Of a stretch of 64,000 nt of DNA, positions 3,001 through 6,000 are shown one piece after another (position 1 is the stretch's first letter; each line of letters begins with the position of its first letter). Position numbers: made by a program. The stretch is from Candidatus Kapaibacterium sp. (lineage in GTDB: Bacteria; Bacteroidota; Ignavibacteria; Kapaibacteriales; JAEUSM01). Where the stretch lies: positions 473,864-537,863 of the forward strand of contig JAEUSM010000006.1 in assembly GCA_016788785.1 (NCBI GenBank), given 5' to 3'.

Positions 3001-6000
3001 TAGAGCTAAAAGCCTCTGCAGAGATGAGATAAGTCATACCAAATTTTTAGTAAATCTAATTACTAAATATAAATAAATACCTTTCAAAGAAGATATTTTG
3101 TTTAGAAAATTAGAAATTCAACATAGAATTTTAATCATAATAATAAAGTTTCTCATCTGGTTTAAGTATTCCTTTTTCGATAATTTCATTTCTGAAATAC
3201 TCAAAAGTAGGTTGGTATTCTTCATCGTCAAATTCTAGTCTAATCCATTTATCATTTTTATGTTCTTTGGGGACAATTTTTGTTGAAGTTTCAGATATTT
3301 CCCATGGAACACCATCATAAGTATATTTTACTTTGAGTACTTGATAAAATCCTCGATGATCACCAACCCATTTTTGAAGTGTATAATATTCAGTATTGTT
3401 AGAAAATCCTAAATATTTCATGTGTTCTCCCAGTTTAAAGTCTACTTTTAACGCTCTTAATCCAGTTTCTAATCTATTGTGTATTTCAGATTCTACTTGA
3501 TTTCCAAACTTGTCAGTCCATAAACCTTTAGCATTTTTTGTATACCTTTTTTTGTTATAATCTACAACTACTGTAAGATCATCTAAATAAAGTATTTTCA
3601 TTTTATATAAATTCTAATATTTCACAATAGTATTGTTTCCTTTTGAAGAAACTATCAAATAAACTCCTGAAGGTAATTCTTGAATATTCAAACTATTAGA
3701 TTGAAGAGTTTTCGTTAGAACTAATTCGCCGAATGTGTTATAGATGTTGATTACTTCACCATCGTTGCTATCTCGAAAAGTTACCAATCCATTCGTTGGA
3801 TTTGGATAGATGTTTTGTTTCCATTCATTTTCATTGACGCTACTAAGAGTAAAAATCTCGTTCAAAAGTTGCTTTAATTTGTAGTATGTAGGATAAACCT
3901 TTGCTACTTCGTTGCTTTTTACTGCCAAAACTCCAGCAACATTGATGTTTTTTAAATAAAATGGAGAAAAACCAAATTTTCCTTGTGAGGCAACTTCTAT
4001 ATATTGATTTGTCAAAGGGTCTTTTTTCTCTAACCAACATCCAATTCCATAACGAGTTTGTGCCAAATCTTTATCAATTGGCAAAAATTGTAAAAATGGA
4101 GAATACAAAATTGTTGCGTCCTGTGTTTGATCTGAACACATAATTTCCACATTTTCAGGCGAAAGAACTTGTTTACCTTTATACATTCCATTTTGCACTA
4201 ACATCGTAGGAACTGAAACATATTCCAAAGCAGTGGAATATACGCCGCCATCTATTCTGGGGTTAGCAGTAAAATATATGGGAGGAACATCAAACCCAGT
4301 TCTCGTCATACCTAAAGGTTGTTTTACATATTTTGCATAAAGTGAGTCCCAACACTCGCCAGAAGGATAGGGTAATCCGGAAGCCATTTCTGCCATTCTT
4401 CCTGCAATGTGCATCGAATTTGATCCATAATTCAAAAATTGCCCAGGAGAACTTGACAAATCTTCATTCAAGATATCATTCACACATTCTGCTAAGGTTC
4501 CTTTGAATTGAATATCCTCCACACACGCAGTTGGTCCACTAAGATTTCCTGCAAAACCAGATGTAAATGTGAACAATTGACGAATGGTTATTGAAGCTTT
4601 TTCTGGTGATAGGTTCGGGAAAAATTTACCACATGAATCGTCTAATGAAAGCAATCCATCTTGCACTAATCCCATTATCACAAGCCCAGATGACCATTTA
4701 CTTGCAGAAGCAATGGGCATCAACCTCGTATCACTCACTGTTTTACCGGGAAGATTATAGGATTTGTTATAAACAATATTCTCCCCCAATGATACAATCA
4801 CACAGACACCTCCAAAATCGGATTGTCCTGTTCCACCCAAAATTTCTAATGAATCTTGGAGTAACTTATCAACCTTGCTAAAATCAAATTGTTGAGCTTG
4901 TAAAAAAGTAGGAGTTAGGGATAAAAGAAAGGTTAAAAGAACAAGTAAGCGAATTTTCATAGTATTTCCAATAGTATTTTTCTCATCTGACAATTTCTAT
5001 CATAAAATGGTTTACTTTTTACTTTCCAATTGTTTTCTTTCTTTCGCTGTTTTAGAAATAACCATAGATTCAGAACGCGTAAATTTTTTGATAAATTCAA
5101 TTTTCCGGAAACGTAAAGCTGACCAATCCTCATCGATGGCAACTTGCATCACCGGCTCAAAGGTCAAATCACTGATACCATCCCAACCACTATCTCGATT
5201 GATTGTAGAAGCATATTTTTTTGACGTTTTTTTGGGATAACAGAACCAAACGATTTCATCATTTTTTACAGTATCTTTTATAGATCGAAAAAATGAATTA
5301 ATTACATCACTATTTGTTCCAAACCCAATAGCAACCGTAAAATCGGAAGTATTAGTTGATTCCATAGCCCCTATTAACTCTAATTCACTCCTCATCCATT
5401 GCAAATCATCAGGTAAATTAGAAAACATCACCGTTGCACCCGATTTAATCTGTAATTTTTTCAATATTGCATTCATATCTTCTCCATTATTATAATTCAA
5501 AAATACAAAAAATTCCAATGTGTGATATCAAACATTCTATTCCCCTGTTTTGGAGGAGTGCAGTCTTTCGAGGGGGGCTTCTTCAGAGACGCAAAGCATT
5601 GCGTCTCTACGTTAAGTTCAGAAGATTGGTTCCCCTCTTGAGGGGTGGCACGAAGTGACGGGGTGGATTCTTCGGGAACACACGGCCGTGCGTCTCTTCG
5701 TTTAGCACAGAAGATTGGTTCCCCTCTTGAGGGGTGCCAAGAAGTTGTAGAGACAGGGCATGCCCTATCTCTACGAAAACAACAAAACACATCTCCCTCG
5801 CCCCTTTGGGGAGAGGGATGGGGAGAGGGGTAATTCTGAATCAATAAAACCTAAGAAATAGATGGCTGAGGCTCTCGAAGCCATATATTAAAAAAACGGT
5901 ACTATCTATAGACTTTACATCCCAAAAAAAAGGCAGGAATACCTGCCTTTTTCTTATTTACTAATCACAAACTTTCGGAAAATTGGTTTCTTGGAATTGA

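What the first reader, a model, noticed from the sequence alone, without database searches (positions are those of the whole stretch)
5521..5835. Modular family of GC-rich palindromic intergenic repeats in an AT-rich genome
The same short GC-rich modules recur in at least five intergenic regions: 5.5-5.8 kb, 10.2-10.45 kb, 18.4-18.55 kb, 27.2-27.6 kb and 29.4-29.8 kb. They appear in both orientations and in differing combinations. Module A is the palindrome GTAGAGACGC-N8-10-GCGTCTCTAC. Module B is CACCCCGTCACTTCG joined to the hairpin CCCCTCAAGAGGGGAACC. Module C is CCCTCTCCCCATCCCTCTCCCCAATGGGGCGAGGGAG. Module D is GGGCAACCTTTACGGTTGCCC. Module E is GACCACGGTGTGGTCAC. They lie between convergent genes or downstream of genes, as REP/BIME or MITE-like elements do. 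Their GC content contrasts sharply with the ~33% GC background.
Basis: seen in the sequence. Interest (0 to 1): 0.6.

Follow-up and report, generated by a model that had tools for sequence, protein, structure and literature searches.

The report
Mosaic REP and BoxC repeat clusters
The GC-rich islands between genes in this AT-rich Kapabacteria genome are real clusters of small selfish DNA repeats, mostly of two already described kinds (GTAG-tagged REP hairpins and BoxC triplex motifs), which change quickly between related strains and mark places where gene order breaks.

Summary
Modules A-E recur in five intergenic regions, far above chance, and GC-rich islands longer than 50 bases occur only there. 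The window comes from a Candidatus Kapabacteria MAG. The repeats are a mosaic of several classes, not one family. They match almost base for base the REPs published next to TnpA_REP (RAYT) subclass 2.4 genes in other phyla, including the "double-foot" GTAG...CTAC type. Module C fits the E. coli BoxC/PIT/TM_ECO triplex-motif consensus. Module B is not a strong palindrome. It has two C-rich boxes, a variable GC hairpin with compensatory changes, and a G-rich arm, which resembles a BoxC motif with a hairpin in its first loop. The same B architecture occurs in Nomurabacteria and another Kapabacteria genome. Relatives 70-95% identical carry different module sets at the same sites, and two clusters sit at synteny breaks. 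A REP doublet block sits at a non-orthologous site at 94% identity, against 79-86% for the flanking genes. Same-strain short-read contigs end inside the clusters. No RAYT gene was found in the 338 kb available, so REP mobilisation by a RAYT is inferred. Verdict: new member of known kinds, modest interest.

The parts
5540..5576 (-). Degenerate B-like module (CCCCCTCGAAAGACTGCACTCCTCCAAAACAGGGGAA)
5583..5610 (-). Module A: GTAG-tagged REP hairpin GTAGAGACGCAATGCTTTGCGTCTCTGA
   Evidence: (z -7.1)
5617..5673 (-). Module B: box1 CCACCCC, hairpin GTCAC-TTC-GTGCC, box2 CACCCCTC, G-rich arm GAGGGG, flanked by GAAGAAT/AATCTTC
   Evidence: (I1, I4)
5676..5699 (-). Degenerate copy of the double-foot REP GTAGAGACGCACGGCCGTGCGTCTCTAC
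   Evidence: an intact copy is in L020
5706..5745 (-). Module B, 3' part. Together with 5676-5699 it is the second copy of the 89-nt tandem A+B duplication 5572-5656 / 5661-5745
   Evidence: (D3)
5747..5774 (.). Double-foot REP GTAGAGACAGGGCATGCCCTATCTCTAC
   Evidence: (published GTAGAGACAGGGCATTGCCCTGTCTCTAC)
5793..5835 (+). Module C: BoxC/PIT/TM_ECO triplex motif, strict match to the published consensus at 5795-5829. Shared anchor with relatives L137 and L144
5927..5952 (.). Intrinsic-terminator-like hairpin of the upstream protease gene. Not a repeat module. It separates that gene from the cluster
10234..10300 (+). Long B, with the nested mini-insert CACTTCGACTTCGCTCAGTGAC in its first loop
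   Evidence: (D5, I3)
10301..10350 (+). Module B
   Evidence: window 10165-10325, which spans the long B at 10234-10300 and the first 25 nt of this copy, is absent from the 91% relative L137
10363..10387 (+). Degenerate D-type GTAG REP (GTAGTTGCAACCTTTACGGTTGTCC), first half of a REP+BoxC composite unit
10401..10448 (-). Diverged C/BoxC-type motif, second half of the composite unit
10467..10499 (.). Module E: TTCTATAAATATG + palindrome TGACCACTCTGTGGTCA
   Evidence: (I8)
18399..18426 (.). Perfect double-foot REP GTAGAGACGCAAAATTTTGCGTCTCTAC, absent from relative L028
   Evidence: (z -7.4)
18441..18500 (-). Long B with the nested mini-insert
   Evidence: (I3, I5)
18513..18539 (-). Module A REP GTAGAGACGCCCTATATGGGCGTCTCA, conserved at this position in L028 and L030/L031
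27186..27205 (+). Half-A remnant (GCCCTATATGAGCGTCT) followed by a T run
27222..27252 (-). Truncated B (box1 + hairpin GCC-TTTCA-GCC + box2 start)
27264..27291 (-).
   Evidence: (published GTAGGGACAGGTCGTGACCTGTCC)
27302..27339 (-). Degenerate B
27359..27441 (.). REPIN-like head-to-head doublet: two A REPs in inverted orientation with GTAG outside and a 29-nt spacer. Folds into a 28-bp stem
   Evidence: I13; z -14.3; the same block sits at a non-orthologous site in L024 at 93.8% identity
27468..27492 (-). Module D: GTAG REP GTAGGGGCAACCGTAAAGGTTGCCC with three G-C pairs at the stem foot
27498..27554 (+). Module B
   Evidence: (I1)
27564..27589 (.). Degenerate A palindrome AGAGACGGAATGCTTATCGTCTATAC
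   Evidence: (D6)
29318..29342 (.). Intrinsic-terminator-like hairpin of the T9SS-tail gene. Not a repeat module. It is conserved in all relatives and lies proximal to the cluster
29388..29465 (+). REP+BoxC composite unit: GTAGGGGCGACCTATGTGTCTGCCC, linker ATTTATACAGAATGT, then C (strict TM_ECO match 29429-29463 on the minus strand)
   Evidence: (D2, I2)
29474..29486 (-). Half-A remnant GTAGAGACGCAAA
29500..29532 (.). Module E palindrome TGACCACGGTGTGGTCA + CATATTTATAGAA
   Evidence: I8; z -3.1
29553..29569 (.). Small GC palindrome CGACCCCGTAGGGGTCG
29626..29704 (+). Second REP+BoxC composite unit, 86% identical to 29391-29476
   Evidence: D2; relaxed match
29727..29777 (+). Long B with the nested mini-insert, truncated before the G-rich arm
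   Evidence: (D5, I5)

Best explanation
The five GC-rich islands are mosaic clusters of small non-coding dispersed repeats in a Candidatus Kapabacteria genome. They are built from at least three kinds of unit. (1) GTAG-tagged REP hairpins (modules A and D, plus GTAGGGACAGGTC... and, in relatives, GTAGGGGTGAAAC...). These are of the two sorts described for TnpA_REP/RAYT subclass 2.4: canonical REPs with three G-C pairs at the stem foot, and 'double-foot' GTAG...CTAC palindromes. (2) BoxC/PIT/TM triplex-type motifs (module C), often fused at fixed spacing to a REP as an ~80-nt composite unit. Modules B and F (F was seen only in relatives) have the same plan of C-rich box, C-rich box, G-rich arm, but carry a small variable GC hairpin in the first loop. 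(3) Short simple palindromes (E and others). Inferred mechanism: the REPs are non-autonomous elements. A single-copy HUH tyrosine transposase (RAYT) encoded elsewhere cuts and re-joins them as single-stranded hairpins, recognising the hairpin plus the GTAG. New units land next to or inside existing ones, in intergenic DNA that lies past terminators and ahead of promoters, where insertions are tolerated. Clusters then grow by tandem duplication and nested insertion, and shrink by deletion between repeats. The hairpin- and triplex-prone DNA also promotes local rearrangement. What is shown: the identity of the units, their structure, their rapid turnover and their coincidence with synteny breaks. 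What is inferred: the RAYT step and any triplex formation.
For: Recurrence far above chance, restricted to intergenic DNA. The window is from Kapabacteria. A and D fit the REP definition of GT[AG]G + GC-rich hairpin and nearly equal published subclass-2.4 REPs. Published GTAGAGACGCACGGCCGTGCGTCTCTAC is exact in relative L020 and degenerate at window 5676-5699. Published GTAGAGACAGGGCATTGCCCTGTCTCTAC compares with window 5747-5774, GTAGGGGCAACCCTTGCGGTTGCCC with module D, and GTAGGGACAGGTCGTGACCTGTCC with window 27264-27291. Stable hairpins and a 28-bp REPIN-like doublet. C matches the TM_ECO consensus strictly at two sites and is 88-90% identical to E. coli copies. The B hairpin shows all four pair types at one position (AU 11, CG 6, GC 6, UA 5). 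The same mini-insert sits between the two C boxes of long B and of a C copy in L137. Turnover: the leuS-amidase spacer is 195, 99, about 1000 and about 2800 bp in four lineages, with different modules. Region 5 keeps its terminator and first REP, but everything after them differs in four lineages. L137 lacks window 10165-10325. L030 and L031 differ by one CCCCTCTCCCCA box. A ~138-nt B-D-C unit is tandemly amplified 4-5 times in L011. A 162-nt block of REP doublet + D + start of B lies at a non-orthologous site at 93.8% identity, while flanking genes are 79-86%. Regions 1 and 2 are synteny breakpoints against the 95% relative L144. Same-strain short-read contigs end at window 5804, 10446, 27416, 27609 and 29756, all inside clusters. 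Clusters lie distal to terminator-like hairpins.
Against: No RAYT/Y1 transposase gene was found in the window or in any fetched relative locus (338 kb), nor in 823 kb of IMG/VR loci carrying the double-foot REP. The REP-RAYT link for this lineage therefore rests on sequence identity to REPs published from other phyla. No clean empty site with exact insertion borders was recovered. The window/L028 comparison is too diverged to align past the first REP. Turnover could therefore be deletion or recombination rather than transposition. B folds weakly and is absent from the published REP table, so a RAYT may not handle it at all. The B/BoxC relationship is my inference from architecture and one shared insert. 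Its box1 is only a 5-of-6 mirror of box2. The whole-genome copy number is unknown.
Confidence: 0.75

Rival explanations
1. The modules are relics. They were once spread by a transposase, or arrived with transferred DNA, but no active mobilising enzyme remains in this lineage. The differences between strains arise only from deletion, slipped-strand duplication and recombination or gene conversion among existing copies.
For: No RAYT in 338 kb. Many copies are degenerate or truncated. There are tandem duplications, a box-number change between near-identical strains and a deletion-like difference with its junction inside a B copy. The literature notes that REPtrons are missing from many REP-bearing strains.
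Against: An identical 27-nt REP occurs three times in the window, and a 162-nt block is 93.8% identical at a non-orthologous site in a relative whose genes are 79-86% identical. That points to recent copying rather than old decay, although gene conversion could produce the same result. Only about 10% or less of any genome was available, so absence of a RAYT has not been shown.
Confidence: 0.2
2. The modules are functional RNA or DNA elements kept by selection, for example 3'-end stabilisers, terminators or insulators between transcription units, or protein-binding sites, rather than selfish repeats.
For: They sit downstream of genes and form hairpins. Compensatory changes preserve the stems. 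In one orientation some REPs are followed by T-rich tails and score as terminator-like. REPs are credited with such roles in E. coli.
Against: Ordinary terminator hairpins already lie between the gene ends and the clusters. Modules occur in both orientations relative to the flanking genes. Orthologous sites in relatives carry different modules, or far fewer. There is no Rfam match, even at permissive thresholds. Holder et al. cite an earlier study reporting no promoter or terminator activity for BoxC/PIT motifs.
Confidence: 0.1
3. They are classical MITEs: internally deleted insertion sequences with terminal inverted repeats and target-site duplications, moved by a DDE transposase.
For: Some B copies are bracketed by GAAGATT...AATCTTC. 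Composite units of 80-140 nt recur.
Against: Units are 25-70 nt. The GAAGATT flanks are missing from B copies in other phyla. No target duplications were seen. The core units carry the GTAG tag typical of HUH-processed REPs, not of DDE elements.
Confidence: 0.04

Closest known systems
GTAG-tagged REPs associated with TnpA_REP / RAYT subclass 2.4 (Bertels group 4), as described by Quentin et al. 2018 (PMC6006769) and Di Nocera et al. 2013 (PMC3733652)
   Same: A 5' GTAG at the foot of a GC-rich hairpin. Both subclass-2.4 sorts are present: three G-C pairs at the stem foot, and double-foot GTAG...CTAC. The sequences nearly equal the published ones. I read the table abbreviations as Chloroflexus aggregans, Emticicia oligotrophica, Cytophaga hutchinsonii and Paludibacter propionicigenes. 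They occur as singles, head-to-head dimers and clusters, and show complementary stem changes.
   Different: The host is Kapabacteria, which is not among the phyla named in the parts of either paper that I read. No cognate RAYT or REPtron was found in the sequence available. Here the REPs are regularly fused to BoxC-type motifs.
BoxC / PIT / TM_ECO intrastrand triplex motif of E. coli and more than 260 other genomes (Holder et al. 2015, PMC4666352)
   Same: Module C fits CCCTCNCCC-N3-6-GGGNGAGGG-N3-GGGNGAGGG exactly at two sites. It is 88-90% identical to E. coli copies. It is intergenic, occurs in both orientations, and the loci that carry it are rearranged between close strains.
   Different: The paper reports no link to mobile elements in E. 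coli. Here C is repeatedly joined to a GTAG REP through a conserved ATTTAT-CAGAAT linker, and variants (B, F, one C copy in L137) carry a hairpin or mini-insert between the two C-rich boxes.
BIMEs (bacterial interspersed mosaic elements) of E. coli
   Same: Clusters combine REP hairpins in varying orientations with other short conserved motifs, and whole units are tandemly amplified.
   Different: The accompanying motifs are unrelated to the E. coli ones. IHF or gyrase binding and the strict alternation of REP types were not examined.
REPINs (Bertels and Rainey 2011, PMC3116915)
   Same: The doublet at 27359-27441 is two inverted REPs with a short spacer, folding into one long hairpin. The block is found at another site in a relative.
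   Different: REPINs were defined with group 2 and 3 RAYTs in Pseudomonas and enterobacteria (my recollection of Bertels' later work). Most REPs here are singles or sit in mosaics, not doublets.

Membership tests
GTAG-tagged REP (RAYT/TnpA_REP subclass 2.4 type) | Conserved GT[AG]G tetranucleotide at the 5' foot of the hairpin | tested here: met
   About 10 intact copies start with GTAG directly followed by the stem.
GTAG-tagged REP (RAYT/TnpA_REP subclass 2.4 type) | 20-40 nt GC-rich imperfect palindrome that folds into a stable hairpin | tested here: met
   Single-strand DNA folds: -8 to -12 kcal/mol, z -4.7 to -7.4 for A copies. The D hairpin is predicted within the D-C unit.
GTAG-tagged REP (RAYT/TnpA_REP subclass 2.4 type) | Subclass-2.4 hallmarks: three G-C pairs at the stem foot, or double-foot GTAG...C[TC]AC | tested here: met
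   GTAG-GGG...CCC in D-type copies. GTAGAGACGC...GCGTCTCTAC in A-type copies. Near-identity to entries in Table S1.
GTAG-tagged REP (RAYT/TnpA_REP subclass 2.4 type) | Many dispersed extragenic copies in the genome | tested here: inconclusive
   Met within the 64 kb (five intergenic regions) and in relatives' loci. Contig breaks at the clusters imply further copies. The whole genome could not be scanned.
GTAG-tagged REP (RAYT/TnpA_REP subclass 2.4 type) | Cognate RAYT gene flanked by the same REPs (REPtron) | tested here: inconclusive
   phmmer and tblastn with E. coli RayT and two Bacteroidota RAYTs found nothing in 338 kb. This is a small fraction of any one genome.
GTAG-tagged REP (RAYT/TnpA_REP subclass 2.4 type) | Binding and cleavage of the single-stranded hairpin at GTAG by the RAYT | not testable with these tools
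   Needs biochemistry.
BoxC / PIT / TM_ECO triplex motif | Consensus CCCTCNCCC N3-6 GGGNGAGGG N3 GGGNGAGGG | tested here: met
   Strict matches at 5795-5829 (+) and 29429-29463 (-). Relaxed match at 29668-29702. 27 matches in all across the window, the relatives and an E. coli control locus.
BoxC / PIT / TM_ECO triplex motif | Sequence similarity to the E. coli elements | tested here: met
   blastn gave 88-90% identity over 39-43 nt to multiple E. coli sites, for example the yagA-yagE spacer.
BoxC / PIT / TM_ECO triplex motif | Formation of an intrastrand triplex | not testable with these tools
   Needs CD or NMR. Even for E. coli the paper found no stable triplex in vivo.
BoxC / PIT / TM_ECO triplex motif (for modules B and F) | Two pyrimidine boxes that mirror each other plus a complementary purine arm, with loops of 1-6 nt | tested here: not met
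   The box-box-arm order is present, and F has an exact mirror (CCCCTC / CTCCCC / GGGGAG). In B, box1 (CACCCC) is only a 5-of-6 mirror, and loop 1 holds a 9-32 nt hairpin. B and F resemble the family in plan but are not members as defined.
CGTC-tagged REPs | CGTC tag, 8-9 bp stem starting with A-T pairs, 4-5 nt loop, CCA tail | tested here: not met
   The B hairpins have 3-7 bp stems that start with G-C and lack a CCA tail.
MITE | Terminal inverted repeats, target-site duplication, typical length 100-400 bp | tested here: not met
   Units are 25-70 nt. The flanks are not conserved across copies or phyla. No duplications were seen.
Curated structured RNA (Rfam 15) | Match to a covariance model at or near the gathering score | tested here: not met
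   No hit at gathering thresholds in 64 kb. Only chance-level hits (E 0.26-0.82) in the clusters.

The most novel reading that the evidence does not exclude
Modules B and F, together with BoxC, may form one undescribed superfamily of 'two C-boxes plus G-arm' mini-elements whose first loop is a landing site for small hairpin inserts. The superfamily would be spread across very distant lineages (Kapabacteria, CPR Nomurabacteria, unclassified MAGs). The fixed REP-BoxC fusion seen here would mean that BoxC/PIT motifs spread by riding on RAYT-mobilised REPs. Holder et al. found no link between these motifs and mobile elements in E. coli, so their means of dissemination is still unexplained.
Probability: 0.25. 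Interest if true: 0.55.

Novelty: new member of a known kind. Interest (0 to 1): 0.33.

Why it matters
For annotation, these islands should be masked as REP/BoxC repeats. They generate spurious ORFs, break short-read assemblies and mark rearrangement-prone spots in Kapabacteria MAGs. For biology, the window extends subclass-2.4-type REPs to a little-studied lineage. It also shows near-identical REP sequences shared with distant phyla and with phage-like contigs, which fits horizontal spread. The physical REP-BoxC linkage and the cross-phylum B module are leads on how non-REP mini-repeats disseminate. None of this overturns current understanding.

Tried and rejected
- Rfam at gathering thresholds on the whole window, and at permissive E-values on two clusters, gave only chance-level hits. 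ARAGORN found no tRNA or tmRNA.
- The RAYT search used phmmer and tblastn with E. coli RayT, a Bernardetia RAYT and a Fulvitalea RAYT. It found nothing in the window, in relatives' loci (338 kb) or in 823 kb of IMG/VR loci.
- The single genome-contig scan, for the B 18-mer, gave only six single hits and not the source genome. That number is no more than chance would give for an 18-mer. Four of the six nevertheless carry the whole B architecture, so they are real.
- B was not found in IMG/VR or in PLSDB plasmids.
- Full-text literature searches for the literal strings GTAGAGACG and CGTCTCTAC returned only primer sequences. A search for cyanobacterial 'small dispersed repeats' did not return the paper I recalled.
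- The CGTC-tagged REP family was considered for B and rejected on stem, loop and tail features.
- A generic GTAG-hairpin finder without a GC filter did not beat shuffles (18 found against 11.6). Even with a GC filter the margin is modest (8 against 1.5, maximum 7). The case for REPs therefore rests on sequence recurrence and literature identity, not on that statistic.
- MAFFT could not align window and L028 beyond the first REP, so no exact insertion borders were obtained.
- The 1857-nt spacing of double-foot REPs in some IMG/VR contigs is not a REPtron. The REPs there flank a phage capsid gene.
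Full report

Yes.

Counts against dinucleotide-preserving shuffles:
- GTAGAGACGC with up to 1 mismatch: 8 found, 0.79 expected.
- The B hairpin 18-mer with up to 3 mismatches: 5 found, 0.00 expected.
- The B 5' box: 7 found, 1.6 expected.
- D and E: 3 each, against 0.00 and 0.05 expected.

The window is 34.5% GC. Stretches of at least 57.5% GC that are longer than 50 bases occur only in these five intergenic regions, all within 5-30 kb. The repeat finder links the regions to each other in both orientations at 84-100% identity. 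A coordinate-checked catalogue of 30 units is.

- There are more unit types than A-E.
- B is not a convincing palindrome. Its single-strand fold has z -0.5 to -1.3. A copies have z -4.7 to -7.4, and the A-A doublet has z -14.
- 5572-5745 is an 89-nt tandem duplication of an A+B unit.
- Only regions 3 and 5 lie between convergent genes.

**2. Whose genome?**

The flanking genes include T9SS-tail proteins, LeuRS, an amidase, ribulose-phosphate epimerase and an SLT transglycosylase. The 494-aa protein at 27818-29302 is 100% identical to a protein that NCBI names from a Candidatus Kapabacteria MAG, on a 645-kb contig. The LeuRS hits that carry names, at about 62% identity, are from Kapabacteria or Ignavibacteria.

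Short-read (Logan) contigs of the same strain end at window positions 5804, 10446, 27416, 27609 and 29756. Every one of these ends is inside a cluster. That is what multi-copy repeats do to assemblies.

**3. What the units are**

*(a) GTAG-tagged REPs.* A, D, GTAGGGACAGGTCGCGACCTGTCC (27264-27291) and, in relatives, GTAGGGGTGAAAC... all consist of GTAG followed directly by a GC-rich hairpin.
- That is the definition of GTAG-tagged REPs (Di Nocera 2013).
- Quentin et al. 2018 describe two REP sorts for TnpA_REP subclass 2.4, a subclass found in 'Cyanobacteria, Bacteroidetes and various phyla'. One sort is long REPs with three G-C pairs at the stem foot. The other is 'double-foot' REPs with GT[AG]G at one end and C[TC]AC at the other.
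- D is the first sort and A is the second.
- Their Table S1 lists near-identical sequences next to subclass-2.4 genes:
  - GTAGAGACGCACGGCCGTGCGTCTCTAC, which is exact in relative locus L020 and degenerate at window 5676-5699.
  - GTAGAGACAGGGCATTGCCCTGTCTCTAC, against window 5747-5774 GTAGAGACAGGGCATGCCCTATCTCTAC.
  - GTAGGGGCAACCCTTGCGGTTGCCC, against module D.
  - GTAGGGACAGGTCGTGACCTGTCC, against window 27264-27291.
- I read the species codes in that table as Chloroflexus aggregans, Emticicia, Cytophaga hutchinsonii and Paludibacter. That decoding is mine.
- A Parabacteroides plasmid record carries another double-foot copy.
- The pattern GTAGAGACGC-N4-12-GCGTCTCTAC occurs in 93 IMG/VR stretches, including a genuine capsid-protease-portal region.
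- The pair at 27359-27441 is a head-to-head doublet with a 29-nt spacer, that is, REPIN-like.

*(b) Module C is BoxC.* blastn of 5521-5835 against PLSDB hit E. coli, Enterobacter, Klebsiella, Azospirillum, Sphingobium and others over the C part. The listed hits run from 81% to 92% identity.
- In the E. coli yagA-yagE spacer the element reads CCCCCTCGCCCCTTTGGGGAGAGGGCCGGGGTGAGGGG.
- Holder et al. 2015 call this BoxC/PIT/TM_ECO, with consensus CCCTCNCCC-N3-6-GGGNGAGGG-N3-GGGNGAGGG. They report it in more than 260 genomes, always intergenic in E. coli K-12, and associated with locally rearranged loci.
- Window 5795-5829 and 29429-29463 fit that consensus exactly. 29668-29702 fits with relaxed matching.

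*(c) Module B.* B has a fixed plan: box1 CCACCCC(G), a short variable GC hairpin, box2 CACCCCTC, a loop, and the arm GAGGGGAAC.
- On 30 distinct copies, the hairpin shows compensatory variation. One pair has AU 11, CG 6, GC 6 and UA 5. Paired cells are 87.7%, against 44-58% when the partner columns are slid.
- B is not specific to this lineage. The full plan occurs in GTDB genomes of two Candidatus Nomurabacteria, another Kapabacteria and an unclassified MAG, and in other metagenome contigs. In some of these it forms head-to-head pairs.
- In three of those variants, box1, box2 and the arm change together (C,C,G to T,T,A).
- Module F, seen in relatives, is GCTCCCCTTTAAGGGGAGC-TGTCCGAAGGAC-TGAGGGG. 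It has the same plan on the other strand, with boxes that are exact mirrors.
- The mini-insert that makes 'long B' (CACTTCGACTTCGCTCAGTGAC) also sits between the two C boxes of a BoxC-type copy in L137.
- I therefore infer that B and F are BoxC-like elements with a hairpin in the first loop. This is an inference. As formally defined (loops of 1-6 nt, mirror boxes), B does not qualify.
- B is absent from the published REP table, from PLSDB and from IMG/VR. It does not fit the CGTC-tagged class.

*(d) Module E and CGACCCCGTAGGGGTCG.* These are small palindromes of unknown affiliation that recur at cluster edges in several lineages.

*(e) Composites.* A GTAG REP, the linker ATTTAT-CAGAAT and a BoxC motif recur together as an ~80-nt unit in the window (10363-10445, 29388-29465, 29626-29704) and in relatives. 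In L011, a ~138-nt B-D-C unit is tandemly repeated four to five times.

**4. Dynamics**

The metagenome scan and three protein searches gave orthologous loci from lineages at about 95%, 91%, 84% and 70-75% identity.

- *leuS-amidase spacer.* It is 195 bp in the window (A, long B, double-foot A). It is 99 bp in L028 (A, a degenerate short B, no second A). It is about 1 kb in L030/L031 (A, BoxC, half-A and an extra gene). It is 2.8 kb in L010, which holds a TPR-cyclase gene and about 1 kb of packed modules.
- *L030 against L031.* They encode the same LeuRS yet differ by one CCCCTCTCCCCA box.
- *Region 5.* All lineages keep the terminator hairpin and the flank ending in 'caagaaaat' ('caaggaaaa' in L037). 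In the window, L024 and L038 a GTAG REP follows at once (TTAG in L024). In L037 it follows 19 nt later. Everything beyond differs.
- *Block at a non-orthologous site.* The window's region-4 block (A-A doublet, D and the start of B, 162 nt) lies in the region-5 position in L024 at 93.8% identity. The neighbouring genes are 79-86% identical.
- *Region 2.* L137 lacks window 10165-10325. L144 (95%) shares the left part and then runs into a different gene.
- *Region 1.* BoxC is the only shared anchor, and L144 again continues into different genes.

The clusters are thus hot spots of gain, loss, duplication and rearrangement. This matches what Holder et al. report for TM loci in E. coli.

**5. Position relative to transcription signals**

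Terminator-like hairpins at 5927-5952 and 29318-29342 lie between the gene ends and the clusters. A promoter-like site at 5518-5489 lies on the other side of cluster 1. The clusters therefore occupy the slack between transcription units. That argues against a role as the genes' own 3' ends.

**6. Mechanism and rivals**

The best reading (0.75) is mosaic clusters of selfish mini-repeats. REPs would be moved in trans by a RAYT as single-stranded hairpins. BoxC-type units would be co-amplified with them or arise nearby. Tandem duplication, nested insertion and deletion would then shape each cluster.

The RAYT step is inferred. No Y1 transposase was found in 338 kb, and the genome itself could not be scanned. 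A Bernardetia plasmid shows what a Bacteroidota REPtron looks like: a Y1_Tnp gene flanked by GTAG hairpins.

Rivals:
- Relics without an active enzyme, reshaped only by recombination (0.2).
- Selected RNA or DNA function (0.1).
- Classical MITEs (0.04).

**7. Novelty**

A, D and C belong to described families, so the finding as a whole is a new member of known kinds in an unstudied lineage. The less expected points are the regular REP-BoxC fusion, the cross-phylum B module including CPR bacteria, and the shared mini-insert site. These are leads rather than established results.

Noticed in passing
L010 6745-8538; L037 7829-8129; upstream hairpin GCCACTATCT-tc-AGATAGTGGC also at the cluster edges in L011 (~14190), L020 (~4800) and L022 (~7662): A TPR + adenylate/guanylate-cyclase-like gene, with a conserved upstream hairpin and leader, sits next to repeat clusters at different chromosomal positions in different relatives. 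It is absent from the orthologous window sites. It may be a paralog family or a cargo gene that moves with the clusters.
   Followed up: partly
L046 559-586 and 2416-2443; the same 1857-nt spacing occurs in L047, L048, L060 and L064: Double-foot REPs (GTAGAGACGC...GCGTCTCTAC) flank the major capsid gene in a phage-like capsid-protease-portal region found in several IMG/VR contigs. REPs of this type therefore also live in phage or prophage DNA of a host with about 48% GC.
   Followed up: partly
L004 6597-6680 (also L018, L021, L008, L014, L025): In Candidatus Nomurabacteria and an unclassified MAG, B-type modules form head-to-head pairs around GGTGGA-aaattca-TCCACC. In one copy of each pair, box1, box2 and the arm all carry the same coordinated change (CCTC / CTCCTC / GAGGAG).
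   Followed up: partly
window 5497-5844 (-) and 27387-27641 (+); L030 3554-3745: ORFs of 115, 84 and 63 aa run through the repeat clusters. One of them was called as a gene in a public assembly. They are almost certainly spurious.
   Followed up: no
window 21418-21848: At least three tandem copies of a 120-nt unit (85% identity) lie inside the 546-aa ORF 21202-22842, so this is a protein with internal 40-residue repeats.
   Followed up: no
L013 1860-1950: A run of about nine copies of the octamer CCGGCAGA lies near a repeat cluster in the Ga0164290 relative.
   Followed up: no
L144 10001-11314: In the 95% relative, the 437-aa M10-like/T9SS-tail protease of window 5954-7267 is called as two genes (273 + 154 aa). 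This suggests a frameshift or pseudogene next to cluster 1.
   Followed up: no
window 30846-35205: The orthologous genes in L038 carry FlgI, FlgH, FlgA-chaperone, two rod proteins and a Bac_export_2 domain. They have the same lengths and order as the window ORFs, so this Kapabacteria lineage has a flagellar gene cluster right after region 5.
   Followed up: no
L137 ~5205-5235 and L144 ~7190-7220 (orthologous to window ~10050-10100): An (AT)n microsatellite of about 13-15 units lies upstream of the 202-aa gene in two relatives. I did not see it in the window stretch I read (from 10100 onward).
   Followed up: no
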